This document shows positions 19,619-63,158 of a stretch of DNA of 64,000 bases, piece by piece. A model generated the notes under the pieces. It saw only the letters and a program-made list of their open reading frames with translations, made no database searches and was not told the origin of the DNA. Source of the DNA: a virus; the UHGV virus genome UHGV-0240317; one strand, 5' to 3'. The position numbers and the translations under genes are program-made. Every line of letters starts with the position of its first letter. Positions within the stretch are counted from its first letter, which is position 1.

Positions 19619-20041
19619 TTATTTCTCTCTCAGTTTGTTAAGTTTCTTTCTAGAACATTTTAAGTTTTCGGATGAAGAAAAGTCAAGTGTCTTTTCAGAA
19701 CGTGGATAATAGTGCCTATCCCAAGAAGTTTCAACATCGTTAATCAGTGATGCTAGGTTACACAGGTCTGTACCACTTTGCAACCTCTTTTTAAGAGAAT
19801 CTAGTAAAGCAACTGTGTCTTTAGCTTTACGTCTCGCTGTAGCAACATCTTTCATATGCTCAAATACAGAGCATTTTAAGTCATCTTCATAGTTTTCAGA
19901 CAACTCTATTTCATGTTGTATATCAACCATTCTCCTGTGATGGTGAGCATATTCCCGCTGAGCAGCAATGTCAAGTTCTTCCAACTTCTGCAAAGCTCTA
20001 ACAAAGTCAGCTATGTCTGGGTGAACAAACATTTTCTGCAT
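19619..20041 (-). CDS. hypothetical protein
   Basis: 140-aa ORF, first gene of minus-strand block after divergent region. Confidence 0.45.
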   Translation of the reverse strand: MQKMFVHPDIADFVRALQKLEELDIAAQREYAHHHRRMVDIQHEIELSENYEDDLKCSVFEHMKDVATARRKAKDTVALLDSLKKRLQSGTDLCNLASLINDVETSWDRHYYPRSEKTLDFSSSENLKCSRKKLNKLREK

Positions 20042-20298
20042 GTAAGCCTCTTTTAAGTAACTATTAAGTTTTAATCTTTTATCTTAACGTATTCTATACG
20101 TTATACTTTAAAGCTTTTTAAAAGCTATTAAATAATCTTTTAAGAGTTTTAAAGTATCTGTATAGTTAAACTGTTAAGTAACCTTTTAAGTAAAAACCCA
20201 CTTCGCAAAGATTAACACCTTGTCAAGTGCATTGTCAACTTGCTTTTTATAATTTTTTGCAGTAATGTATGAGGTTAATGATTTTAGAGGGAGTAAAA

Positions 20299-22441
20299 AT
20301 GGAAAACGTAGATTTTAAAAACTTACATTTAGTTGGTGATACAGAAACTGATGGTTTACTCCTTGAGTTCACTAAAGTGCACGTAATGGCTTTCGCAGAC
20401 TATAAATCTGACGATGAAGAGCCACCTGTATGGGTCTTTACAGATGAGCCTATCCTCGGTCACAAGTATACCAAGTACATTAAGGGTGGCTTACGTGAAG
20501 GTGTTGAATTTGCGTTAAAGGCAAAACGTCTTTGCATCCATAATGGTCTCGGTTATGACTGGTGGGTTTTTAATCACATTGCACCTGATTTATGGAACTT
20601 TGATAATCCAAAGTGTAAACCGTGGAGTAATTTCTTTCAGGATTCTCTTATCCAGTCTCGTGTTCAGTGGATGGATAGACCAACCCCAAAAGGTTATAAG
20701 GGTGCTCATGGCTTGGCTGCATGGGGTGCTCGTGTTGGTGTCCGTAAACCAGAGATTGAACATTGGGGTGTGTGGAATGCAGAAATCTTCACTCGTGTTG
20801 TAGAAGATATCCGTATTAACGCCAAAACTAAACGGGCACTTGATAATGAATATCTCAAGCTTAAGAAGTGTGGCATAGATACTTATGAAACCTACATGCG
20901 AGCTAAAGAAACATCTTTTTGGATGAGTCAACAAGCTATCAATGGCTGGAAAGCTGATAAAGAGCTTATGGAGTTCCATGTAAAGGAACTTGACAAGTTG
21001 ACTAATGAGCTTGCTTCAGAGGTTGAACCACATCTACCTCCAACTATTAAGACCAAAGGTAAAGTCACTGGAGAAGAGTTTGCAAAAGCTTGGAATGAGT
21101 ATGTTGAAACATTTGGTCATGCAGATGGACTGAAGAGAATTACCAAGTACCCTAAGACAAAGTATCGTCAGCAGGTACGTAATGGTGAGATGCAGACTTA
21201 TGAAATCAAACCATTTGGTAAGCCAACTACAAAGATTTTTAACATTGAAAAGAGAAATTGCTATACACCAACCAACTCTGTAACTGGTGAAGAGTACAAG
21301 GAAGGTTTTGTAGCAATGAAGGATGCTCGTGCAATTTGCAATGAGTTGAATGCAAAGATTGGTAAGAAATGCAAAGACTGGAAGCCAGCAAAAACAGTTA
21401 AGACTGTGAAGTACTATAACAGCCATGTTGTTAACCACTTTGAGCTTGAGTCAAGTCGCTACACAGGTTTGATTGATGCACCATATACACCAATCGAGTT
21501 CGAAGTTTCTCGTATGACTCAGGTAGCAGTTGTTAAAGACTACTTGAAATCAGTTGGTTGGATTCCAGATGACTGGAACTATAAGAAAGACTCTGATGGT
21601 CGTCCTGTTAAGGTTTGTCGCTTCAAAGACAACAAAAAGATGATTACAAAGCATCCTAAATGGCAGGAAATGGTTGAACGGTGTGGTTTGAGCTATGTTG
21701 AACATGAAGGCGTCCAGTACATTGAGCATAACTGGTCTGTGAAGAAATACACAGATTTGCTTGAGCCTTGCTTAATCCGTACTTCACCAAAACTTACTGA
21801 ATCATCTTATGATACGATTGAAGGTGAGCTTGGACAGAAGATTGCTAAGTACTATACTTTGATGCACCGACGCAGAACTATTGAGAACTCAAAGGATGAT
21901 GAGAAAGGTTGGTTAAACCAGATTCGTCCTGATGGTCGCCTTAGTGCTGGTGCAATGGTGTTTGGTACTTCAACTGGACGTATGACACAATATGGTATTG
22001 TAAACGTACCGTCTGGTGCTGCTGTCTATGGAGCACCTATGAGGGAGGTGTGGATTTGTGAAGAGGGGACTAACATTGTTTCTGTTGACCAGAACTCAGC
22101 CCAGCTTGTTTTACTGTGTAACTTTATGGGTGATAAAGACTTCACCAAAGCAGTAACTGAAGGTAAAGAGTCAGTAGAGTTCACTAAGCAAGATGATGGT
22201 AGATACTACTGTAAACATCTTGACAAGTATCTTAACCCAGAAACTGACAAGTATCTGCGTTATGATGCTGAAAATGACCTCTATGAAGTCTACACAGGGA
22301 CTGATGCGCATACACTGAACAGTATTTACTTTGGTCTTAACAAGGAAGAAGATATTGTCCGTTGTAGGGAGACACAGGGTGAGGAACTTCTCCACGAGAT
22401 TACAAAAGGTCGTAAGAAAGCCAAAAATGGCATTTATGCGT
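20299..22441 (+). CDS. DNA polymerase family A (T7 gp5-like), exon 1 (3'-5' exonuclease and N-terminal polymerase domains)
   Basis: ATG 20299 with GAGGGAG RBS; exo motifs LVGDTETDGL and HNGLGYDWWV; exon ends ...RKKAKNGIYA + U, before in-frame stop located in intron. Confidence 0.8.
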
Positions 22442-22709
22442 CAGTGGCGCATGTAAAACGTTGTGAATTGCTGGAAGCCTAAGTCTGTAAAGATATGGTA
22501 ATCAGCAGCGAAGCCTCTTGAGAGGAACGTTCAGAGACTATCGAAAAGCATACTTAATGTATGAACTGAGTAGAGTAGGGTGGTAAGCTAATGACCATAC
22601 CCAAGTGCAACGGTAGCATCACTGCTACGTGATATAGTCCGACACTCCGTAGAAATGCGGAGAAGTTCATAAGAGAACTGGTACACCTTGCGAGTGTATT
22701 GACCAGATG
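22442..22709 (+). mobile_element. ORF-less group I intron in DNA polymerase gene
   Basis: P1: exon ATGCGU pairs with intron GCGCAU (U-G at splice site); P7 strands GTTCAGAGACTATCG and GATATAGTCCGAC; terminal G at 22709; splicing restores ...NGIYALLFGAGDEKF matching T7 pol motif YGFLYGAGDEK. Confidence 0.75.
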
Positions 22710-23266
22710 TATTGTTCGGTGCAGGTGATGAGAAGTTTGCCAAAACCATTAAGGCAGCTTCTACAGAGGAAGGTGCATTGACTAAGCAGACCTACTATAT
22801 GCGTCTACCAAAGATTAAGAAACTACTTGATAGCTTAGAAGCCGATTTTAAGGCGTCTAAAAAGGCTCTGGAAGAGGTTTTTGGGAAGAATTCTTCAATT
22901 GCTAAAGGTGGTTATATCAGAGTCGCTGGAGCATGGATATGGTGCAAATCTCCACATAAACTACTGAACTACCTCCTGATGAGTTCGGAAGCACAGATTC
23001 AGAATGAGGCCATCAACCTAGCAGCAAGAAAAGCCTGTGAAGATGGCCTGACAAAACTGAATGCTCGAAAACCAGCTATCGGAGCAAGGTTACTTCTGGC
23101 ATATCACGATGAAAATAGTTGGGAATGTCCAGAGGGTATGACACAGGATATGAAAGCAATTGCTGACTGGATGTATGGACAAGCTTCAAAAAACTTAGGT
23201 TTGAGGAAAGAAACACTTGTAACTGGTACAGCAAAGGTTGGTAAGAGCTGGTATGAGGTGCATTGA
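22710..23266 (+). CDS. DNA polymerase family A, exon 2 (motif B/C region to C-terminus)
   Basis: Begins (L)LFGAGDEKFAK; contains ...AYHDENSWECPEG (motif C-like HDE) and C-terminal ...WYEVH. Confidence 0.8.
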
Positions 23267-23269
23267 TTG

Positions 23270-23803
23270 ATGGATTTTATTTCACAAAAACGTTTAAAGG
23301 AGCTACTACACTATGACCCCGAAACAGGGGTCTTTACTTGGCTTCGTAGAGAAGGTAAATCAAGAGCTGTTAGTGTTTTTAACAGTAACTATGCAGGAAA
23401 GGTAGCAGGTAATGTTCAGACAGATTCAACTGGTCATAAACAGATTAGTATCTATTTTGACAAGAAAGCACATAAAGCACACAGACTCGCATGGCTTTAT
23501 GTATATGGCAAGATGCCAAAAGGTATCATTGACCATATCAACGGAGACTCTCTTGACAACAGGATTGCAAACTTAAGGGAAGCAGATGACTTCCAAAGTG
23601 CTTGGAATAAAGGTAAACTAGCCACCAATAAATCTGGGTACAAGGGTGTAAGCCTTAAGAAGAAGTCTGGTAAGTGGGTCGCACAGATAAGTTATAAAGG
23701 TAAGAAGATGTTTTTAGGTTACCATGACACCCCTGAAGAAGCCCATAAAGCTTACTGTGAAGCTGCTATGAAACTCCACGGAGAGTTTGCAAAACTAAGT
23801 TGA
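23270..23803 (+). CDS. HNH homing endonuclease with AP2 DNA-binding domain (free-standing, abutting DNA polymerase gene)
   Basis: HNH region HRLAWLYVYGKMPKGIIDHINGDSLDNRIANL; AP2-like SGYKGVSLKKKSGKWVAQISYKGKKMFLGYHDTPEEAHKAY. Confidence 0.75.
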   Translation: MDFISQKRLKELLHYDPETGVFTWLRREGKSRAVSVFNSNYAGKVAGNVQTDSTGHKQISIYFDKKAHKAHRLAWLYVYGKMPKGIIDHINGDSLDNRIANLREADDFQSAWNKGKLATNKSGYKGVSLKKKSGKWVAQISYKGKKMFLGYHDTPEEAHKAYCEAAMKLHGEFAKLS

Positions 23804-25599: not shown

Positions 25600-25627
25600 T
25601 TGACATAGGAAATTTGGTGAGTATACT
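25600..25627 (+). promoter_or_regulatory. sigma70-like promoter candidate (TTGACA-16 nt-TATACT)
   Basis: TTGACA at 25600-25605, TATACT at 25622-25627; downstream of ligase, upstream of repeat array and accessory genes. Confidence 0.35.
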
Positions 25628-27966: not shown

Positions 27967-28179
27967 ATGGCTCTTAAAAAGTTACATCCCAGAAGCGGTT
28001 ATGGTAAGATAATTGATGATACAGACGGCTTTACAGTCTTTACAGTTATCTGTCAAGATGATTCACAGATTGAAAAGGCTCTTGATGATTATCTTAATGA
28101 TGAACGTGAAAAGGTTAGGGCTACAAACATAGATTCATTGATTGACACTTCACGCAAACGGAAGAAGAAAGATGAATGA
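27967..28179 (+). CDS. hypothetical protein
   Basis: 70-aa ORF. Confidence 0.4.
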   Translation: MALKKLHPRSGYGKIIDDTDGFTVFTVICQDDSQIEKALDDYLNDEREKVRATNIDSLIDTSRKRKKKDE

Positions 28180-28471
28180 AGTTTTTGACCCTTATGCCCC
28201 ACAAGATGATTGGGAGGCTGATAGAGAGGCTGAAATGGAGAGTTATATTTGTCCAATGGATGTAGACGAAATGAGAGACTTCGTTGCACATCGTTTTAAG
28301 AGAGAGATTAAATCAAGAGGTCTTTCTCAAGAGCAAGTTGCTAAAATTTGTGGTATCTCTCAGTCTCGTGTATCCAACATAATCCATCTCACTGGTAATG
28401 TCTCCCTTGAGTATATGTTGGAAGTATGTGAAAAATTTGGTGTTAATTTCAATTTAAGGTTGGCAGATTAA
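28172..28471 (+). CDS. helix-turn-helix (XRE/Cro-like) DNA-binding protein
   Basis: LSQEQVAKICGISQSRVSNI matches HTH_XRE pattern. Confidence 0.55.
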   Translation: MNEVFDPYAPQDDWEADREAEMESYICPMDVDEMRDFVAHRFKREIKSRGLSQEQVAKICGISQSRVSNIIHLTGNVSLEYMLEVCEKFGVNFNLRLAD

Positions 28472-55259: not shown

Positions 55260-55335
55260 TGGAGAATCCGAAGGGACTCGAACCCTTATAAGCCTGTTTT
55301 GCAGACAGGCACATAGCCATTTCTGTCACGGATTC
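55260..55335 (-). tRNA. tRNA-Cys (anticodon GCA)
   Basis: Acceptor GAATCCG/CGGATTC, T-arm GGGTTCGAGTCCC, anticodon loop CTGCAAA, encoded CCA. Confidence 0.75.
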
Positions 55336-55339
55336 AAAT

Positions 55340-55432
55340 TGGAGGAAGATACCAGACTTGAACTGGTACACCGATTTCTCAGCTACTGGCAGTTTAGCAA
55401 ACTGCTCCCTTACCTTTTAGGGTTAATCTTCC
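55340..55432 (-). tRNA. tRNA-Ser (anticodon GCT), class II
   Basis: 93 nt with long variable arm; anticodon loop TTGCTAA; T-arm ACCAGTTCAAGTCTGGT; CCA. Confidence 0.7.
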
Positions 55433-55433
55433 A

Positions 55434-56009
55434 TTATTTCTGTAATGCGTTCTTCATTTCTGGTGTTGCAATAGTGTCAATCACACCAGTTTTACAAGCA
55501 TCATCAAACCAGTCTGGTAAGATACCTGCTAAGAACCCATTGATATTCGTTTTAAGGTACTCTGCAATAAGGGCAGCTTCTTCTTCAATCATCTGCACAA
55601 CTTCATCTGCATAAGCTGTAATCTTTGAGATACCTTCATTAATCTTACTGACAGCTTGGTTAGCTAAATCAGAAACAGTATCAAGACCCTTATCAATAGC
55701 ATCTTGTAAGTCACTTAATACACCATTAACACTATCCAATGTACTGTTCATCATGTCAATAGCTTTTTGACCATACTCTGTAGCAACACCCATAATACCA
55801 CTGAATGGTGTACAACCAACTTGTTCTCCTGCTGCACCCATAACATTGGAGTATCCCTTTGCTACCTGCATACGTGATGAAAACTCATCAATAGACTTTT
55901 GACCGTAGTCTGTTAGGGTCTTAGTAGTTGCTGTAGTGCTTGTAAGGCTTGTTGTAAAGCTGTTTAGAAGGACTGTTGTAAGTCCAGCAGCAACAAGTTT
56001 CTCCTTCAT
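55434..56009 (-). CDS. hypothetical protein embedded in tRNA cluster
   Basis: 191-aa ORF, Ser/Thr/Ala-rich, helical. Confidence 0.4.
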   Translation of the reverse strand: MKEKLVAAGLTTVLLNSFTTSLTSTTATTKTLTDYGQKSIDEFSSRMQVAKGYSNVMGAAGEQVGCTPFSGIMGVATEYGQKAIDMMNSTLDSVNGVLSDLQDAIDKGLDTVSDLANQAVSKINEGISKITAYADEVVQMIEEEAALIAEYLKTNINGFLAGILPDWFDDACKTGVIDTIATPEMKNALQK

Positions 56010-56185
56010 TGTAGGGTCTGTTACAGAGCTAATAGAGCTTACAAGTGATGTAGAAGCAGCTACGGTTCCACCGAGAACTGCTGCACCAGTAATAAGTGGG
56101 TTAGAGAACCCTTTACCGGTTTTTTAAGAGATTAAAAATCTCCTTACCTTGTTCTGTCATCTCTTTCATTAAGCACCTTTGAAAT

Positions 56186-56261
56186 TGGTAGTCCAGTGGG
56201 ATTTGAACCCTCTTCTCATGTTTTTCAGACACGCGCTTTAACCATATAAGCTACTTGGACT
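56186..56261 (-). tRNA. tRNA-Phe (anticodon GAA)
   Basis: Anticodon loop CTGAAAA; T-arm GGGTTCAAATCCC; CCA. Confidence 0.7.
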
Positions 56262-56267
56262 ATAAAT

Positions 56268-56343
56268 TGGGGTGACCTACGGGATTTGAACCCGTATAGA
56301 CCATGTTCACAGCATGGGTCATTACCATTTATGATAAGGCCAC
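56268..56343 (-). tRNA. tRNA-His (anticodon GTG)
   Basis: Anticodon stem-loop CCATG-CTGTGAA-CATGG; T-arm CGGGTTCAAATCCCG. Confidence 0.7.
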
Positions 56344-56374
56344 ATTTAAGGACTCTCGCAAGAATCCTTAGAAG

Positions 56375-56450
56375 TGGCAGCGGCATAAGGATTTGAACCT
56401 TAATAGGACAGCTTCAGAGGCTGCTGCATTGCCAGTTATGCTATACCGCT
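56375..56450 (-). tRNA. tRNA-Gln (anticodon CTG)
   Basis: D-stem GCAT/ATGC, anticodon loop CTCTGAA, T-arm TAAGGTTCAAATCCTTA, CCA. Confidence 0.65.
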
Positions 56451-56455
56451 AAATT

Positions 56456-56534
56456 TGGTACTCCATATCGGATTCGAACCGATACATAACACAGATTTTA
56501 AGTCTGGCCTCTCTGCCAATTGGAGTAATGGAGC
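56456..56534 (-). tRNA. tRNA with anticodon TAA (Leu-type anticodon but class-I-like length)
   Basis: Anticodon loop CTTAAAA; T-arm ATCGGTTCGAATCCGAT; 7-nt variable region; isotype uncertain. Confidence 0.5.
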
Positions 56535-56536
56535 AT

Positions 56537-56611
56537 TGGCGGGGGATGTTGGAATTGAACCAACTTCTTCGATTTCAAAGACCGAGGTTTTAACCTTGTA
56601 AACTAATCCCC
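56537..56611 (-). tRNA. tRNA-Gln (anticodon TTG)
   Basis: Anticodon stem-loop TCGGT-CTTTGAA-ATCGA; T-arm GTTGGTTCAATTCCAAC; CCA. Confidence 0.6.
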
Positions 56612-56620
56612 TTTAAATCT

Positions 56621-57178
56621 TTACTTTCTCAGTGGATGAATAAAGAATGCCAACATAACTCTTTCCCTTGAGAATGCTCTTTCTTCTGGGACAACACTTT
56701 TTAGTTTCCATCCAATATAAATTCTCCAGTAAAACTGTTTACCAAAGACTTTAATTGATGGGATAAAAGCGAATAATCCCCAAGCATTACTGTTCCACAT
56801 TAGGAGATAACCTGTCTGATTATCTTCAGGGTCAGAACTTACGTTGATATTACCTTTCCACTTAGTAACATCTTTTACATCTCTTCCTAATACATGGTAA
56901 GAGAAGTTATAAGCTTTGTTTCTCCAGAGCCATCCGACTCTCTGCATGTAGACACCCAGCTTACCAATCTTTCTAATCTTAGCCCATCTTTTAACGTGGC
57001 CTTCATCACCATCAATCGGGTTGTCATAGGTCTCCATCCATCTGAATCCAAAAGGTAGATGCCCTTTCTTCTCACTGTAGAATGGAACTACGAAAGGTGC
57101 TAAGATGACTGCTAGGGTTGCTGCAAATGGTTCTAACAAAGCTAGGAAAATCCATGAAGCATATTTTAAATATCTCAT
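56621..57178 (-). CDS. hypothetical membrane protein embedded in tRNA cluster
   Basis: 185 aa; N-terminal TM segments IFLALLEPFAATLAVILAPFVV. Confidence 0.45.
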   Translation of the reverse strand: MRYLKYASWIFLALLEPFAATLAVILAPFVVPFYSEKKGHLPFGFRWMETYDNPIDGDEGHVKRWAKIRKIGKLGVYMQRVGWLWRNKAYNFSYHVLGRDVKDVTKWKGNINVSSDPEDNQTGYLLMWNSNAWGLFAFIPSIKVFGKQFYWRIYIGWKLKSVVPEERAFSRERVMLAFFIHPLRK

Positions 57179-57417
57179 CGTCTAATCCTTGTAAGGAGAT
57201 AAATGTTATTATTCGTTTCTAAACCTTCTGGTAAAACTGTCTCAAAAATAACACTCTTTAGCTGTCTACCACCAAAACAATCACGTATAAATCTTTCTAC
57301 TCTAGCGGGGTCACATAAGTACCCTACTTTTAAGAAAATGTGGTGTTCAACACCAATGACCCTGACAAACTCAATATTCTCACAGTTTTCATGTTCAACT
57401 ACTGTTAATGTTTGCAT
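57175..57417 (-). CDS. hypothetical protein
   Basis: 80-aa ORF. Confidence 0.4.
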   Translation of the reverse strand: MQTLTVVEHENCENIEFVRVIGVEHHIFLKVGYLCDPARVERFIRDCFGGRQLKSVIFETVLPEGLETNNNIYLLTRIRR

Positions 57418-57434
57418 AGTATCACCTTTTTATC

Positions 57435-57510
57435 TGGCGCAGGATAAGGGATTCGAACCCCTATTAACAGCTTCGTAGACTGTTGCTCTATCCATTTGAA
57501 CTAATCCTGC
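57435..57510 (-). tRNA. tRNA-Arg (anticodon ACG)
   Basis: Anticodon stem-loop ACAGT-CTACGAA-GCTGT; T-arm AGGGGTTCGAATCCCTT; CCA. Confidence 0.75.
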
Positions 57511-57515
57511 AAAAT

Positions 57516-57593
57516 TGGTGTTCCAAGACGGATTCGAACCGTCACTAATACAAGGTTTGAGCTTGCATCCTCTTCCAATTGGGATACTGGAAC
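57516..57593 (-). tRNA. tRNA with anticodon CAA (Leu-type anticodon but class-I-like length)
   Basis: Anticodon loop CTCAAAC; T-arm GACGGTTCGAATCCGTC; perfect acceptor stem; isotype uncertain. Confidence 0.5.
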
Positions 57594-57594
57594 A

Positions 57595-57669
57595 TGGTAC
57601 TCACTAAAGGACTTGAACCTTTTTCTTCATCTTGTAAGGGTGATGTTTTACCATATAAACTAAGCGAGT
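57595..57669 (-). tRNA. tRNA-Val (anticodon TAC)
   Basis: Anticodon loop CTTACAA; T-arm AAAGGTTCAAGTCCTTT; CCA. Confidence 0.65.
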
Positions 57670-57674
57670 GTGAA

Positions 57675-57760
57675 AGAGGTCTGAAGTTGTGCCGCTAACT
57701 CAACTCCGTGGAATTTGTTACGGTCTTCAGTTGACACCAGCGGTCTTTCACTTGACCTCT
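57675..57760 (-). ncRNA. structured non-tRNA element in tRNA cluster (7-bp closing stem AGAGGTC/GACCTCT, inner 6-bp stem CTGAAG/CTTCAG)
   Basis: No T-loop/CCA; contains GAAGACCGT box related to the repeated elements at 59928-60707. Confidence 0.3.
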
Positions 57761-57764
57761 GAAT

Positions 57765-57841
57765 TGGTGCTGCTCACAGGACTCGAACCTGCATTTCCAT
57801 CCTTACAAGGGATGTGTAATAGCCAATTATACGAAAGCAGC
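57765..57841 (-). tRNA. tRNA-Thr (anticodon TGT)
   Basis: Anticodon stem-loop CATCC-CTTGTAA-GGATG; T-arm GCAGGTTCGAGTCCTGT; CCA. Confidence 0.65.
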
Positions 57842-57847
57842 ATTGTT

Positions 57848-57922
57848 TGGAGCATCCAGAGGGAATCGAACCCTCAACCTCAGTTTGGAAGACTGTAATT
57901 TTCCCGTTTAAACTATGGATGC
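57848..57922 (-). tRNA. tRNA-Gly (anticodon TCC)
   Basis: Anticodon loop CTTCCAA; T-arm GAGGGTTCGATTCCCTC; CCA. Confidence 0.7.
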
Positions 57923-57928
57923 ACTAAT

Positions 57929-58004
57929 TGGTGGAGAAGCAGGGAATTGAACCCTGTACTTAAGTTTGCAAAACTTATGTTTTAACCATGTAAACTACAT
58001 CCCC
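57929..58004 (-). tRNA. tRNA-Ala (anticodon TGC)
   Basis: Anticodon stem-loop TAAGT-TTTGCAA-ACTTA; T-arm CAGGGTTCAATTCCCTG; CCA. Confidence 0.65.
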
Positions 58005-58010
58005 AATGTC

Positions 58011-58086
58011 TGGTACAGGTGGAGGGAATTGAACCCATCGTCTTACTGATTAAGAGTCAGCCGCATAACCATTTTGCTACACCTGC
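58011..58086 (-). tRNA. tRNA-Lys (anticodon CTT)
   Basis: Anticodon loop CTCTTAA; T-loop TTCAATT; acceptor GCAGGTG/CACCTGT; CCA. Confidence 0.6.
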
Positions 58087-58093
58087 ATTAATT

Positions 58094-58170
58094 TGGTACA
58101 CCTAGAGAGATTCGAACTCACACTGAGCAGATTCTAAGTCTGCTGCCTCTACCAATTGGGTTATAGGTGC
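58094..58170 (-). tRNA. tRNA with anticodon TAG (Leu-type anticodon but class-I-like length)
   Basis: Anticodon stem-loop GCAGA-CTTAGAA-TCTGC; T-loop TTCGAAT; isotype uncertain. Confidence 0.5.
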
Positions 58171-58171
58171 A

Positions 58172-58624
58172 TTAAATCAAATGTCTTGAGAATTGACTGT
58201 GGCAATTTGGACACAAGAACCGAAGATTCTCTTTTCTATCATCTAACCAGTTCTCGTTAATGTGGTCAACATCAAGAGTTAGAGGATTACCCAACCAATC
58301 AGGTAACTGACCACATTTAGAGCACTTGTATTCGACACCAGAGGCTATTAAAGCTCTTCTTAGTTGTGAAGACCTCGCTCTTTCACCAGATTCACGTAGA
58401 ATTAGGATTTCTTCAGGCTTTCTTTTTGGTACAGTTTTAATCTTACCAGCCTTTTGTCCGAGAAAATGAGAAGTGTCTATTTCAAACTTTTCTATAACAC
58501 GCTTTAGATGTGACTGAGAACCACCTGCTGGTTTTCTCCCAAGCTTAATAAGTACTTCTCTGAATGATACTGAATCCTTTACTAAAGGTTCAAGAATATC
58601 TTTAGTCAAACTGCTGCGTGCCAT
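58172..58624 (-). CDS. HNH endonuclease (free-standing, inside tRNA cluster)
   Basis: 150 aa; C-terminal HNH/zinc motif CSKCGQ...LDVDHINENW...NLRFLCPNCH. Confidence 0.7.
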   Translation of the reverse strand: MARSSLTKDILEPLVKDSVSFREVLIKLGRKPAGGSQSHLKRVIEKFEIDTSHFLGQKAGKIKTVPKRKPEEILILRESGERARSSQLRRALIASGVEYKCSKCGQLPDWLGNPLTLDVDHINENWLDDRKENLRFLCPNCHSQFSRHLI

Positions 58625-58894
58625 GTGTCAATCTCCCATTAAATCTTTTTAGAGAACTTCTAAGAACCTAAGCAACAAGGTTCCACAACAAGCTGTAATA
58701 ACCTTAGAAGCCCTCTAAAAAGACCTAAAAAGGTCTTTGCATAGTCTTGTTTAATCCGGTGACTAGAACCTTTGGAGAGCTTGATATTATCTCTTCTCCG
58801 TGACACCTACTAGGTGCTTTATCAGTGCGTACAACAATACACGCGGTATACCAAAGCAACATCCGAATGAAGCTTGGCTTTAAATCTTATTAGG

Positions 58895-58982
58895 CGGTAA
58901 GTAAAGGAGTCGAACCCTCACCGTATCTCTACAGTGGCAACAGTTTTCAAGACTGTTTGGCTGCCATTAGCCGCTACCTACC
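58895..58982 (-). tRNA. tRNA-Ser (anticodon TGA), class II
   Basis: 88 nt; anticodon stem-loop ACAGT-CTTGAAA-ACTGT; long variable arm; T-arm GAGGGTTCGACTCCTTT; CCA not encoded. Confidence 0.6.
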
Positions 58983-58995
58983 CCTAATAAGACTT

Positions 58996-59078
58996 TGGCA
59001 TGGGACGGAGGATTTGAACCCCTTTGAAACGGTTTTGGAGGCCGTTGCTCATGCCTTAGAGTCTTAACATCGTCCCAT
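58996..59078 (-). tRNA. tRNA-Trp-like (anticodon CCA) with enlarged D-loop
   Basis: Perfect acceptor ATGGGAC/GTCCCAT, T-arm GGGGTTCAAATCCTCC, anticodon loop CTCCAAA on a 4-bp stem; 83 nt. Confidence 0.45.
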
Positions 59079-59220
59079 ATTATAATTCGAAGCTTACCGT
59101 ATTATCTCAACACTGTAAAGCCCCTTCTCAGATTATTTACATGTTCTGGAAAACATGAGATACAGACCACCTCCCTACAGGAAGACCCGCTTAGGTCGTC
59201 TAAGTAATCTGCTAACTAAT

Positions 59221-59297
59221 TGGCACACCCTACAGGATTCGAACCTGTAACTAACGATTTAGAAGACCGTTGCTCTATCCAATTGAACTAAGGGTGC
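59221..59297 (-). tRNA. tRNA-Arg (anticodon TCT)
   Basis: Anticodon stem-loop ACGGT-CTTCTAA-ATCGT; T-arm ACAGGTTCGAATCCTGT; CCA. Confidence 0.7.
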
Positions 59298-59544
59298 ATT
59301 AATCTTTAAAGACTCTCTGAGAAAGCCCTTAAAGATGCCCACCTTATTAATCATACCGTGGGCTAGTACGCCAAATTCTTCGATGAGGGATTGGAAGACC
59401 TCACTGGTGTTTAGCCTATCAAGCTACTGCCAGAAAAACATTGTCGTTTGCATTTATTTTAAATTTGCAAAATAGACGCTACGCAACGAAAACTAAGGTT
59501 ACTATAAAGTAGTCACATCTCAATGTCAACAACTTTATTGAAAG

Positions 59545-59619
59545 TGGTTGTAGGTGAGGGTATCGAACCCTCTTCTAACGGTTATCAGCCGTTTGCATTA
59601 CCATTTATGCTAACCCACA
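59545..59619 (-). tRNA. tRNA-Ile (anticodon GAT)
   Basis: Anticodon stem-loop AACGG-CTGATAA-CCGTT; T-arm GAGGGTTCGATACCCTC; CCA. Confidence 0.7.
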
Positions 59620-59621
59620 AT

Positions 59622-59698
59622 TGGAGGTTCAGATGGGAATCGAACCCACATTCATAGGGCTTATGAGACCCTTGCATTACCTTATCTGCGACTGAACC
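59622..59698 (-). tRNA. tRNA-Met (anticodon CAT)
   Basis: Anticodon loop CTCATAA; T-arm GTGGGTTCGATTCCCAT; perfect acceptor GGTTCAG/CTGAACC. Confidence 0.65.
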
Positions 59699-59702
59699 AT
59701 AT

Positions 59703-59778
59703 TGGTAGAAGTGGAGGGATTCGAACCCATCGCCTGTCAGATTAAAAGTCTGCCGCATCACCATTCTGCTACACTTCC
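59703..59778 (-). tRNA. tRNA-Lys (anticodon TTT)
   Basis: Anticodon loop CTTTTAA; T-loop TTCGAAT; CCA. Confidence 0.6.
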
Positions 59779-59927
59779 ATTAAATTATCTTTGTAGATAA
59801 GCTACCCAGACTTGCTTAAGGTCTGTAGCGATGTGTATTGTTGGGTTTAAATCTAGAATTTACCCTTTCACCCTTTGTGGTCGCATACTCACAGGTAAGC
59901 TTAATAACTTATCTACAAAGATAATTA

Positions 59928-60060
59928 CCAGACCGTTGTTTAACATCTTAAGTGCTACCATTACACCAACTCGACATCTGCCGAGTGAAGGAATCGAACC
60001 TTCTCCTTTTCTTTACCGGAGAAATAGATTGTTTAAAGTTTGCTGTAAACGGTCTTCTGT
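59928..60060 (-). ncRNA. structured RNA element (repeat-family member 3) containing a tRNA-like module without anticodon arm
   Basis: Closing stem ACAGAAGACCGTT/AACGGTCTGG; interior has canonical T-arm GAAGGTTCGATTCCTTC, 7-bp acceptor-like hairpin ACTCGGC-agat-GTCGAGT and D-arm-like GTGT-AATGGTA-GCAC. Confidence 0.35.
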
Positions 60061-60072
60061 AAATTTGTTGAG

Positions 60073-60151
60073 CCAGACCAAGTTTTAAAATTTTTTCAAA
60101 ATTAAATTGGCTTGAAAATATCATACGTACTTGCTGTAATTGGTCTTCTGC
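60073..60151 (-). ncRNA. structured RNA element (repeat-family member 4)
   Basis: Plus-strand CCAGACC...TTGCTGTAATTGGTCTTCTGC; same terminal boxes as members 1-3. Confidence 0.3.
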
Positions 60152-60211
60152 TCCTTTAAAGAATACTCGTAAGAACTCTTTAAGGGAGGGGCTAAATAGC
60201 CCTCTCAAAAT

Positions 60212-60289
60212 TGGCGGTTACGAAGGGATTTGAACCATCATCATCTCCCGTGACAGGGGAGTATTTTAACCAAATTAAACTACATAACC
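60212..60289 (-). tRNA. tRNA-Asp (anticodon GTC)
   Basis: Anticodon stem-loop CTCCC-CTGTCAC-GGGAG; T-loop TTCAAAT; CCA. Confidence 0.7.
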
Positions 60290-60294
60290 TTTAT

Positions 60295-60382
60295 TGGTGT
60301 GCCGTGTAGGAGTCGAACCTACCGAGTCTCAATGACAAGGGATTTACAGTCCCCACCGCTACCATCTACGGGATAACGACAC
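60295..60382 (-). tRNA. tRNA-Tyr (anticodon GTA), class II
   Basis: 88 nt; anticodon stem-loop GGGGA-CTGTAAA-TCCCT; long variable arm; T-arm GTAGGTTCGACTCCTAC; CCA. Confidence 0.7.
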
Positions 60383-60391
60383 ATTTAAATT

Positions 60392-60468
60392 TGGCGGTTA
60401 GTCAGGGATTCGAACCCTGTGCCATTCGCTTAACAGGCGACCGCACATACCTTATGTGCTTCCTAACC
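60392..60468 (-). tRNA. tRNA-Asn (anticodon GTT)
   Basis: D-stem GCAC/GTGC; anticodon loop CTGTTAA; T-arm CAGGGTTCGAATCCCTG; CCA. Confidence 0.7.
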
Positions 60469-60479
60469 TTAATACATTG

Positions 60480-60541
60480 CCAGACCGTGTTTTTTCTTTT
60501 ATCCGCAAAAAGTATTTTGTTGCTGTAAACGGTCTTCTGTA
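60480..60541 (-). ncRNA. structured RNA element (repeat-family member 1)
   Basis: Plus-strand CCAGACCG...TTGCTGTAAACGGTCTTCTGT; on minus strand directly follows tRNA 3' end. Confidence 0.3.
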
Positions 60542-60545
60542 AATT

Positions 60546-60621
60546 TGGAGGCGGGTGCAGGAGTCGAACCTGCCGATACCATGCTAATGAGACATGTGAG
60601 ACGCCCTTTCTCTATACCCGC
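60546..60621 (-). tRNA. tRNA-Met-type (anticodon CAT), second copy
   Basis: Anticodon stem-loop CATGT-CTCATTA-GCATG; T-arm GCAGGTTCGACTCCTGC; could be initiator or Ile-lysidine type. Confidence 0.55.
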
Positions 60622-60633
60622 AATTCTTAATGA

Positions 60634-60707
60634 CCAGACCAAATCTCTTCTTTGTCCGATTTACCTTCAGATGAATAAGATTAAGTTTGCTGTAATTGGT
60701 CTTCTGT
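60634..60707 (-). ncRNA. structured RNA element (repeat-family member 2)
   Basis: Plus-strand CCAGACC...TTTGCTGTAATTGGTCTTCTGT. Confidence 0.3.
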
Positions 60708-60713
60708 CAAAAC

Positions 60714-60791
60714 TGGCGTTCCAGAAGGGATTTGAACCCTCAGATATCCACTTTGAAAGAGTGGTGACTTTACCATTTTGTCTACTGGAAC
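60714..60791 (-). tRNA. tRNA-Glu (anticodon TTC)
   Basis: Anticodon stem-loop CCACT-CTTTCAA-AGTGG; T-arm GAGGGTTCAAATCCCTT; CCA. Confidence 0.7.
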
Positions 60792-60798
60792 ATTAATT

Positions 60799-60875
60799 TG
60801 GTCTCTGTTGGAGGACTTGAACCTCCGGCCTTACCGCCCCAAACGGAACGCTCTACCAAGCTGAGCTAAACAGAG
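60799..60875 (-). tRNA. tRNA-Pro (anticodon TGG)
   Basis: D-arm GCTC-AGCTTGGTA-GAGC; anticodon loop TTTGGGG; T-arm GGAGGTTCAAGTCCTCC; CCA. Confidence 0.75.
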
Positions 60876-61040
60876 ATAAACTTTTCAAACTCTATGTAAC
60901 CACTTTAACATTATTTTTTAGTGGTTGTCAAGAACTTTTTTAAAATATTTTTCAGTATCTTAGAAAAGCTCTCATTTCGTTTCTATGTAGAACATATTAA
61001 AGGGTATTAAACGCATTGTCAATACCCTTTTTAAAACTTT

Positions 61041-62537: not shown

Positions 62538-62909
62538 CTATTTTTTGAGAGTCGCTACAGCAGAGAACGTTGGTTTGTTATCTGTCTGGGGTTGACCACC
62601 ATTATCAGGAGCCTTCTTAGTGTCTGCTGCAATCGCTTTCATCTCACCTGCTGAGTGAGTCATGATAGTTTTACCGACCTCAATCATACTCTTGATGGTT
62701 ACATCGTCTGTGTTTAACCCGAACTCTGCAAGCTTAGCAGCATCCCTTGTAACAATCGCTTCAAATAACTTTGCAGCAAACTCAGCAGAATTATCAATGG
62801 TCAGTTGAGCTTTTACGAGTGAGCTTTTGTTACGAGAGCCTTTTGGTCTTCCGGATGGGTTTCCAGACTGGCCTTTTTTAAACTGGCCTTTGTTTGTTCT
62901 ATTTTTCAT
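62538..62909 (-). CDS. hypothetical protein with N-terminal KGQSGNPSGRPKG basic motif
   Basis: 123-aa ORF. Confidence 0.45.
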   Translation of the reverse strand: MKNRTNKGQFKKGQSGNPSGRPKGSRNKSSLVKAQLTIDNSAEFAAKLFEAIVTRDAAKLAEFGLNTDDVTIKSMIEVGKTIMTHSAGEMKAIAADTKKAPDNGGQPQTDNKPTFSAVATLKK

Positions 62910-63158
62910 TGGTATGCCTCTTATAAGACCTCTTAAAAGGCTTTTAAGATAAAAGATAGATATCCAGAAAGATATCTGTTTAAATAGCCTTTTTAGAGGA
63001 ACCTTTTAAGTTATCTTCTAAGTATTTATAAGCCTACACCTTGTCAAGTACTTTGTCAACAACTTTTTTAACTTGCAATAGTTCTTGACTTGTTGTATGG
63101 ATTACTGTACCATCTTACTTAAAGCTGTAGGTCTGCCTTGTTCTACAAAGGAGACTTA

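What the first reader, a model, noticed from the sequence alone, without database searches (positions are those of the whole stretch)
20216..20245. Shared motif ACACCTTGTCAAGT-C-TTGTCAAC in both divergent intergenic regions
The same about 25-nt sequence with two tandem TTGTCAA(G/C) copies occurs at 20216-20240 (between the minus-strand early block and the DNA polymerase) and at 63038-63062 (between the vWA-protein block and plus-strand ORFs). On the minus strand each copy reads TTGACA, giving tandem -35-like hexamers. This suggests a common promoter or operator controlling divergent transcription.
Basis: seen in the sequence. Interest (0 to 1): 0.4.

Follow-up and report, generated by a model that had tools for sequence, protein, structure and literature searches.

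The report
Shared leftward promoter core, Felix O1-like phage
The repeated 25-base motif is real and is most likely the core of two matching host-type promoters that start the two long leftward operons of a Felix O1-like phage; it is an ordinary kind of element, except that a second, equally conserved "-35" hexamer sits inside the promoter spacer and its role is not known.

Summary
The window is a Felix O1-like phage (Felixounavirus, about 98% identity), reverse-complemented relative to NC_005282. The motif is real. ACACCTTGTCAAGT-NNN-TTGTCAAC lies at 20215-20239 and 63036-63060, with 0.01 matches expected by chance. The linker is 3 nt, not 1.

In the complete Felix O1 and SUSP1 genomes it occurs only in these two divergent intergenic regions (genes 96/97 and 40/41).

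On the minus strand each copy has the anatomy of a sigma70-type promoter: an A-tract, a distal TTGACA, 17-18 bp, then TAATCT (preceded by TGT) or TAGGCT. A second TTGACA is embedded in the spacer. The transcribed leaders downstream are also similar; the plus-strand sides are not.

Three comparisons support this reading:
- Distant relatives keep a single reverse TTGACA-N17/18-TAnnnT at the same places.
- 59 T4-like phage loci carry the same tandem hexamers 11-13 bp apart, and 58 of them keep TAnnnT 17-18 bp from the distal hexamer.
- Other promoter-like sites in the window share the AAAAAGTTG-TTGACA signature.

One copy was published as predicted promoter P41, and the other is annotated as a promoter in GenBank records. 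The invariant second hexamer is unexplained. An operator for the phage HTH protein gp85 remains possible. No transcription start sites have been mapped.

The parts
20215..20239 (-). Shared 25-nt core, copy 1 (written on + as ACACCTTGTCAAGTGCATTGTCAAC). It lies in the DNA polymerase / gene-97 divergent intergenic region.
   Evidence: Conserved in Felixounavirus, Suspvirus and Mooglevirus.
63036..63060 (-). Shared 25-nt core, copy 2 (written on + as ACACCTTGTCAAGTACTTTGTCAAC). It lies in the gene-40 / gene-41 divergent intergenic region and overlaps the published predicted promoter P41 of Felix O1.
   Evidence: PMC3185647 read.
20233..20238 (-). Distal TTGACA of copy 1, the inferred -35 hexamer of the leftward promoter P_A.
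   Evidence: Sequence. Listed as TTGACA-N18-TAATCT. A GenBank promoter annotation in ASO1A lies on this strand.
20221..20226 (-). Proximal TTGACA of copy 1, embedded in the promoter spacer at about -24 to -19. Its function is unresolved.
   Evidence: Invariant in all 24 flank-anchored IGR1 loci.
20209..20217 (-). TGT + TAATCT, the inferred extended -10 of P_A. The transcription start is inferred near 20202.
   Evidence: Mooglevirus has TGG + TAGTCT, so the TGn and TAnnnT positions are kept and the free positions vary.
20244..20248 (-). A-tract (AAAAA on the minus strand) just upstream of the distal hexamer, resembling an UP element.
   Evidence: One search shows the flank ataaaaagcaag-TTGACA.
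63054..63059 (-). Distal TTGACA of copy 2, the inferred -35 hexamer of the leftward promoter P_C.
   Evidence: ttaaaaaagttg-TTGACA-N17-TAGGCT.
63042..63047 (-). Proximal TTGACA of copy 2, embedded in the spacer.
   Evidence: The TTGAC core is kept in all 27 flank-anchored IGR2 loci.
63031..63036 (-). TAGGCT, the inferred -10 of P_C. The transcription start is inferred near 63024.
   Evidence: The variants TAGGCT, TAGCCT and TAGTGT all keep T, A and the final T.
63064..63069 (-). A-tract (AAAAAA on the minus strand) upstream of the distal hexamer, resembling an UP element.
   Evidence: The same AAAAAGTTG-TTGACA signature occurs at other promoter-like sites in the window.
20180..20191 (-). Leader box ACTTAAAAGGTT, about +12 to +23 of the inferred P_A transcript.
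63000..63011 (-). Leader box ACTTAAAAGGTT, about +14 to +25 of the inferred P_C transcript.
20042..20208 (-). Inferred 5' leader of unit A. It holds four CTT[TA][TA]AAG octamers (starting at 20050, 20106, 20137, 20183) and palindromes.
62910..63030 (-). Inferred 5' leader of unit C. It holds four CTT[TA][TA]AAG octamers (starting at 62920, 62932, 62941, 63003) and two hairpin or palindrome elements.
20240..20268 (+). Candidate rightward promoter for the DNA polymerase unit, TTGCTT-N17-TAATGT, lying back-to-back with the motif.
   Evidence: Both hexamers and the 17-bp length are conserved across genera while the spacer sequence varies. The match to consensus is weak (6 of 12).
63085..63113 (+). 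Candidate rightward promoter for the gene-40 unit, TTGACT-N17-TACCAT.
   Evidence: Identical in three genera.
63053..63082 (+). Second rightward candidate, which uses half-site 2 as its -35: TTGTCA-N18-(TGc)AATAGT.
   Evidence: Mooglevirus has AATACT. IGR1 has no counterpart.
19619..20041 (-). First gene of leftward unit A (homologue of Felix O1 ORF97).
62538..62909 (-). First gene of leftward unit C (DUF5681 protein, homologue of Felix O1 ORF41).
28142..28471 (+). HTH_3 (XRE-type) regulator, homologue of Felix O1 gp85. It is only a candidate for binding the embedded element.

Best explanation
Each copy of the motif is the core of a promoter for the host RNA polymerase (sigma70-type) that fires leftward, on the window's minus strand.

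One copy heads the operon that starts with the ORF97 homologue: replication and nucleotide-metabolism genes, Felix O1 genes 97-131 and 1-23. The other heads the operon that starts with the DUF5681 gene: the DUF2828/DUF7788 protein, the tRNA cluster, terminase and virion genes, Felix O1 genes 41-79.

Read on the minus strand, the anatomy is:
- an A-tract resembling an UP element;
- the distal TTGACA as the -35 hexamer;
- a spacer of 18 bp (copy 1) or 17 bp (copy 2);
- a weak -10, TGT-TAATCT in copy 1 and TAGGCT in copy 2.

The second TTGACA and the ACACC flank lie inside that spacer. The two regions also share a leader box, ACTTAAAAGGTT, at the same offset, and arrays of CTTWWAAG octamers. They therefore look like two copies of one promoter-plus-leader module.

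What is shown: the motif, its uniqueness in the genome, its conservation, and the promoter geometry with its covariation. What is inferred: that RNA polymerase starts there, at about 20202 and 63024. What is unexplained: why the embedded second hexamer is as invariant as the -35. Possibilities are an alternative docking register for sigma region 4 or an overlapping operator.
For: 1. Uniqueness. There are two exact copies in the window against 0.01 expected, and the double site occurs only at these two divergent regions in the whole Felix O1 and SUSP1 genomes.

2. Conservation pattern.
- In 24 IGR1 and 27 IGR2 loci collected through flanking sequence, not through the motif, both reverse-strand TTGAC cores are always present 12 bp apart, while the bases between them vary freely.
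- The -10 positions T, A and final T are kept while the free positions vary: TAATCT/TAGTCT, with the preceding TGT changing to TGG, and TAGGCT/TAGCCT/TAGTGT.

3. Distant relatives have a single reverse TTGACA with good geometry at the same places.
- Arno18: TTGACA-N17-TAGGCT.
- phiEa104: TTGACA-N18-TACATT.
- Yersinia phage P778: TTGACA-N17(TGT)-TAAAGT.
- In Arno18 and P778 this hexamer lies back-to-back with a plus-strand TTGACN-N17 promoter.

4. An independent data set.
- 59 unique regions upstream of gene 55 in T4-like phages carry the same tandem hexamers 11, 12 or 13 bp apart.
- 58 of the 59 have TAnnnT 17 bp (46) or 18 bp (12) from the distal hexamer.
- All 12 cases with an 11-bp period restore the 17-bp spacing with one extra base before the -10.
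- TGn is common.

5. In a sample of viral contigs, non-coding tandem hexamers are followed by TAnnnT at 16-18 bp in 29 of 57 cases, against 2 of 52 in coding contexts. Several have a perfect TATAAT, and at least one (L191) is followed by an ATG with a Shine-Dalgarno-like GGGG on the same strand.

6. The flank AAAAAGTTG-TTGACA recurs at other promoter-like sites in the window: 25600(+), 59529(-), 60931(-), with looser versions at 61022(-) and 62525(-).

7. Directionality. The leaders on the minus-strand side are significantly similar (score 32 against 18.6 +/- 2.9; 0 of 1000 shuffles), and the plus-strand sides are not.

8. Earlier predictions. P41 in Whichard et al. 2010 (PMC3185647) uses the distal hexamer of copy 2. 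The ASO1A GenBank record annotates a minus-strand promoter over copy 1.
Against: - No transcription start site has been mapped. My literature searches found none for this genus.
- Both -10 hexamers match the consensus at only 3 of 6 positions, so a simple consensus scanner does not call either promoter.
- Copy 2 lacks an in-register TGn.
- A plain sigma70 promoter does not explain an invariant TTGACA in its spacer.
- In the T4-like clade the same promoter points away from gene 55 and runs antisense to the upstream gene, so its product there is unknown.
- RT-PCR in Felix O1 shows the first genes of all four units (38, 41, 42, 96, 97, 98) peaking at 25 min rather than 5 min. That is not what an unregulated strong early promoter would give.
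Confidence: 0.68

Rival explanations
1. The conserved element is mainly an operator. A phage-encoded DNA-binding protein binds the embedded ACACC-TTGTCAAG element, or both half-sites, and switches both leftward promoters together to give temporal control. The candidate is the XRE-type HTH protein gp85 (28142-28471). The site lies between the -35 and the -10.
For: - The proximal hexamer and its flank are as invariant as the -35 although they lie in a promoter spacer.
- Only these two promoters in the genome carry the embedded element.
- The first genes of the units peak at 25 min.
- gp85 is an HTH_3 protein with a borderline Sigma70_r4 match.
- gp85 homologues occur in 261 records, essentially all Escherichia, Salmonella, Shigella and Citrobacter phages of this lineage. 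None was found in the Erwinia, Pectobacterium, Hafnia or Yersinia relatives, and those examined (Arno18, phiEa104, PMBT37, P778) carry only a single hexamer.
Against: - The co-distribution is a single phylogenetic contrast.
- Conservation in the T4-like set is asymmetric: CTTGAC is invariant and the last bases are free, as in a -35 hexamer. It does not look like a palindromic operator of the kind XRE dimers bind.
- The spacing between hexamers varies from 11 to 13 bp in that clade.
- No binding data exist.
- This rival is not exclusive of the promoter reading.
Confidence: 0.2
2. The motif works on the plus strand as an activator box or -35 substitute, like a T4 middle promoter or a Pho box. 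It would drive the DNA polymerase unit and the gene-40 unit.
For: - The motif lies closer to the plus-strand genes.
- TTGTCA matches TTGACA at 5 of 6 positions.
- In IGR2, half-site 2 plus 18 bp reaches TGc-AATAGT.
- In T4-like phages the motif is co-oriented with gene 55 and is followed 12 bp later by a conserved TGGTAnAnT.
Against: - The distance from the motif to any plus-strand -10 candidate is inconsistent: 23 bp in IGR1, 16 bp in IGR2, 12 bp in the T4-like clade.
- The TATAAT at 20248 is not conserved in other genera.
- The plus-strand flanks of the two regions are not similar.
- In the T4-like clade a start 7 nt after TGGTAnAnT would fall inside or after the gene 55 ATG.
- The Pho-box period of 11 bp and its A/T-rich linker are not matched.
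Confidence: 0.07
3. The two regions are replication origins, either iteron-like or, as in T4, origins primed by a promoter transcript. The motif would be part of the origin.
For: - The regions are AT-rich.
- There are two copies per genome, one next to the polymerase and primase-helicase genes.
- Arrays of CTTWWAAG octamers and palindromes are concentrated there: 8 of the 26 octamers in the window lie in 0.8% of its length.
- From general knowledge, the T4 origins oriF and oriG are promoter-based.
Against: - There are only two repeats in the motif.
- No DnaA-box-like or longer iteron array of the motif was found.
- The geometry is that of a promoter.
- Strand-skew evidence is not usable because gene orientation switches at the same points.
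- No data exist on Felix O1 origins.
Confidence: 0.04

Closest known systems
Predicted promoter P41 of Felix O1 (Whichard et al. 2010, PMC3185647) and the 'promoter' features in GenBank record MZ726791 (ASO1A); the record of AYO145A (NC_028825) also lists two promoter features in this region
   Same: P41 (TTGACA-N15-TATAGG, 21515-21541) starts at the distal hexamer of copy 2. The ASO1A feature (TTGACA-N16-GTTAAT) starts at the distal hexamer of copy 1.
   Different: - Those were single-site consensus matches in different registers.
- The paper states that no other homologous sequence was found in the 40-41 or 96-97 regions.
- The 25-nt identity between the two regions, the second hexamer and the shared leader were not noted.
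- The window has TGTAGG where Felix O1 has TATAGG, which favours the N17 TAGGCT register.
Strong phage early promoters for host sigma70 polymerase with UP elements and extended -10 (T7 A1-A3, T5 and T4 early promoters)
   Same: A consensus TTGACA preceded by an A-tract, a 17-18 bp spacer, TGn in copy 1, and a position at the head of long operons.
   Different: The -10 hexamers are weak (3 of 6). A second perfect TTGACA is conserved at about -23 to -18. As far as I know and could find, that is not a described element of such promoters.
-35-like element in lambdoid PR' promoters (sigma-dependent pausing and Q loading)
   Same: A second TTGAC-type hexamer close to a -10-type element in a phage promoter region, bound by sigma region 4 in a non-standard geometry. 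This comes from my own knowledge; only shows that the term is used in papers on sigma-dependent pausing.
   Different: In PR' the element lies about 1 bp from a -10-like pause element downstream of the start. Here it lies 5-6 bp upstream of the promoter's own -10. No Q-like antiterminator was looked for.
Pho box (PhoB binding site CTGTCAT-N4-CTGTCAT)
   Same: Direct repeats that contain TGTCA, close to a -10.
   Different: The period is 12 bp (11-13 in T4-like phages), not a fixed 11. The linker is not A/T-rich. The orientation relative to the best -10 is opposite.
Mobile promoter-plus-stem-loop cassettes of T4-type phages (PeSL)
   Same: A reused promoter module followed by conserved hairpin-forming sequence, present in more than one place in a genome.
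   Different: This comparison comes from memory and was not tested. Here there are only two copies, at the operon heads, not in hyperplastic regions.

Membership tests
sigma70-type (host RNA polymerase) promoter | -35 hexamer close to TTGACA | tested here: met
   Perfect TTGACA at 20238-20233 and 63059-63054 on the minus strand.
sigma70-type (host RNA polymerase) promoter | -10 hexamer TAnnnT 17 +/- 1 bp downstream | tested here: met
   TAATCT at 18 bp and TAGGCT at 17 bp. Both match the consensus at only 3 of 6 positions, and the stricter scanner misses them.
sigma70-type (host RNA polymerase) promoter | Hexamers and spacer length conserved while spacer sequence and neutral positions vary | tested here: met
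   Ounavirinae alignments. In the T4-like set, 58 of 59 sequences keep the spacing, with compensation for the 11-bp period. The embedded hexamer in the spacer does not vary, which is the exception.
sigma70-type (host RNA polymerase) promoter | Upstream of and co-oriented with genes | tested here: met
   Gene starts lie 161 and 115 nt downstream of the inferred starts in the window. This is not met in the T4-like clade, where the promoter is antisense.
sigma70-type (host RNA polymerase) promoter | Mapped transcription start or polymerase binding | not testable with these tools
   No TSS data were found in the literature library.
Extended -10 promoter | TG at -15/-14 | tested here: inconclusive
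   Copy 1 has TGT-TAATCT (TGG-TAGTCT in Mooglevirus), so the feature is met. Copy 2 has GTG-TAGGCT, one position out of register.
Pho box | Two 7-bp direct repeats with a fixed 11-bp period and an A/T-rich linker, about 10 bp upstream of the -10 on the same strand | tested here: not met
   The period is 12 bp in all 51 Ounavirinae loci and 11-13 bp in T4-like loci. The linkers are GTGCA, GCCCT and similar.
Lambda CII-type activator site | TTGC-N6-TTGC tetrads straddling a poor -35 | tested here: not met
   The repeats here are TTGACA hexamers at -35 and at about -20, and the -35 is perfect.
T4 MotA-dependent middle promoter | MotA box (a/t)(a/t)(a/t)TGCTT(t/c)A centred at -30, 12 +/- 1 bp from the -10 | tested here: not met
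   A TGCTT lies next to the motif only in IGR1 (20241-20245), 15-17 bp from TAATGT, and is absent from IGR2. Homologues of MotA and AsiA were not searched for.
Operator of an XRE/Cro-type repressor | Inverted repeat of two half-sites bound by a dimer, overlapping a promoter | tested here: inconclusive
   The site overlaps the promoter spacer. Only a short CTTG-N-CAAG symmetry is present, and it is not conserved in the T4-like variants. Co-distribution with gp85 is shown.
Intrinsic terminator | G+C-rich hairpin followed by a T-run | tested here: not met
   No terminator-like site in either region.
Known RNA family (Rfam) | Match at or near the gathering score | tested here: not met
   No match in IGR1. 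IGR2 gave only chance-level hits of about 20 bits against gathering scores of 100-141.
T4-type late promoter | TATAAATA enriched upstream of late genes | tested here: not met
   One copy at 63030-63023 on the minus strand, but only 3 in the window against 3.4 expected. It is not conserved in Suspvirus or Mooglevirus.

The most novel reading that the evidence does not exclude
Promoters with two TTGAC(A) hexamers 11-13 bp apart may be a distinct and widespread phage promoter architecture. The first hexamer is the -35. The second lies at about -23 to -18 and is under equally strong selection. The arrangement occurs in Felix O1-like enterobacterial phages, in a large clade of aquatic T4-like phages and in other viral contigs. 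The second hexamer would be a functional docking site, for sigma region 4 in a second register or for a phage factor such as gp85, that times or throttles the two major leftward operons of Felix O1-like phages.
Probability: 0.25. Interest if true: 0.6.

Novelty: new member of a known kind. Interest (0 to 1): 0.33.

Why it matters
Felix O1 is a classic Salmonella typing phage and is widely used for biocontrol. Its genome paper states that neither the promoters in these two divergent regions nor the way transcription is timed is understood.

This analysis assigns the two long leftward operons to a matched pair of promoter-plus-leader modules. It also pins down one element that ordinary promoter rules do not explain. 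Together these give concrete, cheap experiments: 5'-end mapping, hexamer mutants and gp85 binding. They also give defined parts for engineering or cell-free rebooting of these phages.

The same tandem-hexamer design recurs in distant T4-like phages. If the second hexamer proves functional, the result would reach beyond this genus.

Tried and rejected
1. The literal pattern with a one-base linker has no match.

2. The perfect TATAAT at 20248-20253, 8 bp after the motif, was considered as a plus-strand -10. I rejected it because it has no -35 at 16-18 bp and is not conserved in Suspvirus or Mooglevirus.

3. The proximal TTGACA was considered as the -35 of a second, overlapping leftward promoter. 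No TAnnnT is conserved 16-18 bp downstream of it in either region or in the T4-like set.

4. A group of viral contigs (the L010 group) carries the motif with the same ACACC flank and at first looked like a related element. The site lies inside a 233-aa ORF and encodes VDKALDKV, so it is a coding coincidence. About half of the tandem-hexamer hits in viral contigs are of this coding kind.

5. A 34-nt identity between IGR2 and T4-like contig L090 first suggested horizontal transfer. Most of it is explained by the general AAAAAGTTG-TTGACA promoter signature, seen elsewhere in the window and across the T4-like clade.

6. Pho box, lambda CII site, MotA box, IHF consensus, T4 late promoter, intrinsic terminator and Rfam families were each checked by eye or by tool and did not fit (see the membership tests).

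7. An RNA hairpin formed by the two half-sites has 7 pairs with a central U-U or A-A mismatch and is AT-rich. It is too weak to be a terminator, and I did not pursue it.

8. Literature searches for TSS or RNA-seq data on Felix O1-like phages, and for described double -35 promoters, found nothing relevant.

Full report
**What the window is**

The two regions and their flanks are about 98% identical to Felix O1-like phages (Felixounavirus). More distant matches are to Suspvirus and Mooglevirus, and beyond them to phages of Erwinia, Pectobacterium, Hafnia and Yersinia. The window is reverse-complemented relative to the Felix O1 record NC_005282.

From that record's annotation and the genome paper, the window holds four transcription units arranged as two divergent pairs.
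- IGR1 (20042-20298) separates a leftward unit from the rightward DNA polymerase unit. The leftward unit begins with the ORF97 homologue and continues with the minor tail protein, dNMP kinase, primase-helicase and nucleotide-metabolism genes. The rightward unit corresponds to Felix O1 genes 96-80.
- IGR2 (62910-63158) separates a leftward unit from a rightward unit of small ORFs that leads to the tail protein and endolysin genes (Felix O1 genes 40-24). The leftward unit runs from the DUF5681 gene through the DUF2828/DUF7788 protein, the tRNA cluster, terminase and virion genes (Felix O1 genes 41-79).

**The observation**

With a 3-nt linker, ACACCTTGTCAAGTNNNTTGTCAAC matches exactly at 20215-20239 and 63036-63060, against 0.01 matches expected. 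No other site in the window comes close. The complete Felix O1 and phiSUSP1 genomes carry the double site only at the two homologous intergenic regions.

**Anatomy on the minus strand**

Copy 1 reads ATAAAAAGCAAG-TTGACA-ATGCAC-TTGACA-AGG-TGT-TAATCT. Copy 2 reads TTAAAAAAGTTG-TTGACA-AAGTAC-TTGACA-AGGTG-TAGGCT.

Each copy therefore has four parts:
- an A-tract;
- a perfect -35 hexamer;
- a spacer of 18 or 17 bp;
- a TAnnnT hexamer, preceded by an in-register TGn in copy 1.

The second TTGACA and the ACACC flank lie inside the spacer. Both -10 hexamers match the consensus at only 3 of 6 positions, so the simple scanner does not report them.

**Comparative evidence within the subfamily**

I collected loci through flanking sequence rather than through the motif, giving 24 for IGR1 and 27 for IGR2. 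Every one keeps both reverse TTGAC cores 12 bp apart. The bases between the cores vary: GTGCA, GTACA, GTGTA, GCGCA, GTGCT, GTGAA, GTGAT in IGR1, and GTACT, GTCCT, GTCAT, GAGGA, TCCCC in IGR2.

The inferred -10 elements keep T, A and the final T while the free positions change. Copy 1 has TAATCT or TAGTCT, with TGT changing to TGG. Copy 2 has TAGGCT, TAGCCT or TAGTGT.

More distant relatives have a single reverse hexamer with good geometry at the same places:
- Pectobacterium phage Arno18: TTGACA-N17-TAGGCT in IGR1.
- Erwinia phage phiEa104: TTGACA-N18-TACATT in IGR1.
- Yersinia phage P778: TTGACA-N17, ending in TGT, then TAAAGT in IGR2.

In Arno18 and P778 this hexamer lies back-to-back, 3-5 bp away, with a plus-strand TTGACN-N17 promoter. 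A leftward sigma70-type promoter at both regions is thus the ancestral state. The tandem second hexamer is specific to the Felixounavirus, Suspvirus and Mooglevirus lineage.

**An independent test from unrelated phages**

A scan of IMG/VR for the half-site pair returned the expected Ounavirinae loci. It also returned T4-like contigs in which the motif sits between a small gene downstream of uvsW and gene 55, the late sigma factor.

Fetching relatives of that gene 55 gave 59 unique upstream regions with two TTGAC(A/T) hexamers 11, 12 or 13 bp apart. The results were as follows:
- 58 of the 59 have a reverse-strand TAnnnT 17 bp (46) or 18 bp (12) from the distal hexamer.
- All 12 sequences with an 11-bp period keep the 17-bp spacing through one extra base between the proximal hexamer and the -10.
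- Most have TGn before the -10.

Variation within the half-sites is asymmetric. CTTGAC is nearly invariant and the following bases are free, which is the pattern of a -35 hexamer and not of a symmetric TTGNCAA site.

A second scan for TTGACAANNNNCTTGACA gave 109 unique sites. TAnnnT lies 16-18 bp after the distal hexamer in 29 of 57 non-coding contexts, against 2 of 52 coding contexts. Several have a perfect TATAAT, and at least one (L191) is followed by an ATG with a Shine-Dalgarno-like GGGG on the same strand.

Within the window, other promoter-like sites share the flank AAAAAGTTG-TTGACA, most clearly at 25600(+), 59529(-) and 60931(-). The distal hexamer with its flank is therefore this phage's ordinary promoter signature.

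**Direction of the shared module**

Downstream of the motif on the minus strand, the two regions align significantly: score 32 against 18.6 +/- 2.9, with 0 of 1000 shuffles reaching it. ACTTAAAAGGTT lies at the same offset in both, followed by ACAGATA(T)CTTT. On the plus-strand side there is no similarity (686 of 1000 shuffles reach the score).

CTT[TA][TA]AAG octamers are concentrated in the two leaders. Eight of the 26 in the window lie there, and these are the two densest 260-bp stretches. The inferred leaders fold somewhat better than shuffles, with z-scores of -2.1 and -2.6. No Rfam family matches.

The plus-strand promoter candidates differ between the regions:
- IGR1: TTGCTT(20240-20245)-N17-TAATGT(20263-20268). 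The hexamers and the spacer length are conserved while the spacer sequence varies between genera.
- IGR2: TTGACT(63085-63090)-N17-TACCAT(63108-63113), and possibly TTGTCA(63053)-N18-TGc-AATAGT.

The motif is therefore part of a leftward promoter-plus-leader module present twice. It is not a symmetric bidirectional control element.

**What is already known**

Whichard et al. 2010 predicted P41 (TTGACA-N15-TATAGG), which begins at the distal hexamer of copy 2. They wrote that no other homologous sequence was found in the 40-41 or 96-97 regions, and that temporal regulation is not understood. The GenBank record of ASO1A annotates a minus-strand promoter over copy 1. The record of AYO145A also lists two promoter features in the matched region; I did not inspect them.

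I found no description of the shared 25-nt core, of the second hexamer or of the shared leader. I also found no transcription-start mapping for this genus.

**What remains unexplained**

The embedded TTGACA is as conserved as the -35, yet it lies 5-6 bp from the -10 and has no -10 of its own.

RT-PCR in Felix O1 shows the first genes of all four units peaking at 25 min, which hints at regulation.

The window encodes an XRE-type HTH protein, the gp85 homologue at 28142-28471. Its homologues occur in 261 phage records, essentially all from the Escherichia, Salmonella, Shigella and Citrobacter lineage. None was found in the Erwinia, Pectobacterium, Hafnia or Yersinia relatives, and the ones I examined carry a single hexamer. 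This is one phylogenetic contrast, so it is a lead and not evidence of binding.

In the T4-like clade the promoter points away from gene 55, and a conserved TGGTAnAnT lies 3-4 nt before the gene 55 ATG. I cannot explain either fact.

**Verdict**

The finding is real and non-random. The element belongs to a known kind, the host-type phage promoter, and both copies had already been flagged separately as predicted promoters. The conserved second hexamer and its recurrence in distant phages give it modest additional interest.

Noticed in passing
window 22379-22662 (+): A group I intron (Rfam RF00028, 62.3 bits against a gathering score of 50) interrupts the DNA polymerase gene. It splits the gene into 20299-22482 and 22712-23266, and the second part matches the C-terminal part of DNA_pol_A. 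In Felix O1 the polymerase is annotated as one uninterrupted 906-aa CDS, and the window carries roughly 270 nt more than Felix O1 over the gene, although the pairwise alignment of the junction came out poorly. An HNH/AP2 endonuclease gene follows at 23267-23803.
   Followed up: partly
window 20050, 20106, 20137, 20183 and 62920, 62932, 62941, 63003 (octamer starts): CTT[TA][TA]AAG octamers cluster in the two leftward leaders. Eight of the 26 in the window lie there, four per region, and these are the two densest 260-bp stretches of the window. Related CTGTTAAG and CTTTAAAG repeats occur in the same regions of Arno18 and phiEa104. They could be protein-binding or RNA elements.
   Followed up: partly
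window 62928-62999 (IGR2) and 20094-20126 (IGR1): A block of about 70 nt in IGR2 is 100% identical across Felixounavirus, Suspvirus and Mooglevirus, although overall identity across this region is only about 80-87%. It contains TCTTAAAAG-G-CTTTTAAGA and AGATATC-CAGAAA-GATATCT. In IGR1 the palindrome ACGTAT-TCT-ATACGT becomes ATGTAT-GTT-ATACAT in Mooglevirus, a compensatory double change that suggests a conserved hairpin.
   Followed up: partly
loci L108-L187 (T4-like viral contigs), about 60-20 nt upstream of gene 55: A large clade of aquatic T4-like phages carries a tandem-TTGACA promoter that points away from gene 55 and runs antisense to the upstream gene. It is followed by a conserved CGGTGT(A/T)(G/C)CCC. 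A conserved TGGTAnAnT lies only 3-4 nt before the gene 55 ATG. The function of each is unknown.
   Followed up: partly
window 25600-25627 (+), 59529-59501 (-), 60931-60902 (-), 61022-60994 (-), 62525-62496 (-): Other promoter-like sites share the signature A-tract + GTTG + TTGACA-N16-18-TAnnnT. The site at 59529 corresponds to the published Felix O1 P45. These look like the phage's general class of host-type promoters.
   Followed up: partly
window 28142-28471 (+): An XRE-type HTH_3 protein, the gp85 homologue, is confined to the Felixounavirus, Suspvirus and Mooglevirus lineage. That is the same set of phages that has the tandem hexamer motif.
   Followed up: partly
window 55263-60875 (-): A cluster of 24 tRNA genes lies in the leftward unit downstream of copy 2 of the motif (Rfam gathering hits). 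Homing endonuclease genes are interspersed in the Felix O1 annotation.
   Followed up: no
loci L067 and L092 (about 671-690 in L067), and L279: Some unrelated viral contigs carry three TTGACA hexamers at a 12-bp period (for example TTGACAATTAAC-TTGACAAGTTAA-TTGACA). Arrays of -35-like hexamers may therefore arise repeatedly.
   Followed up: no
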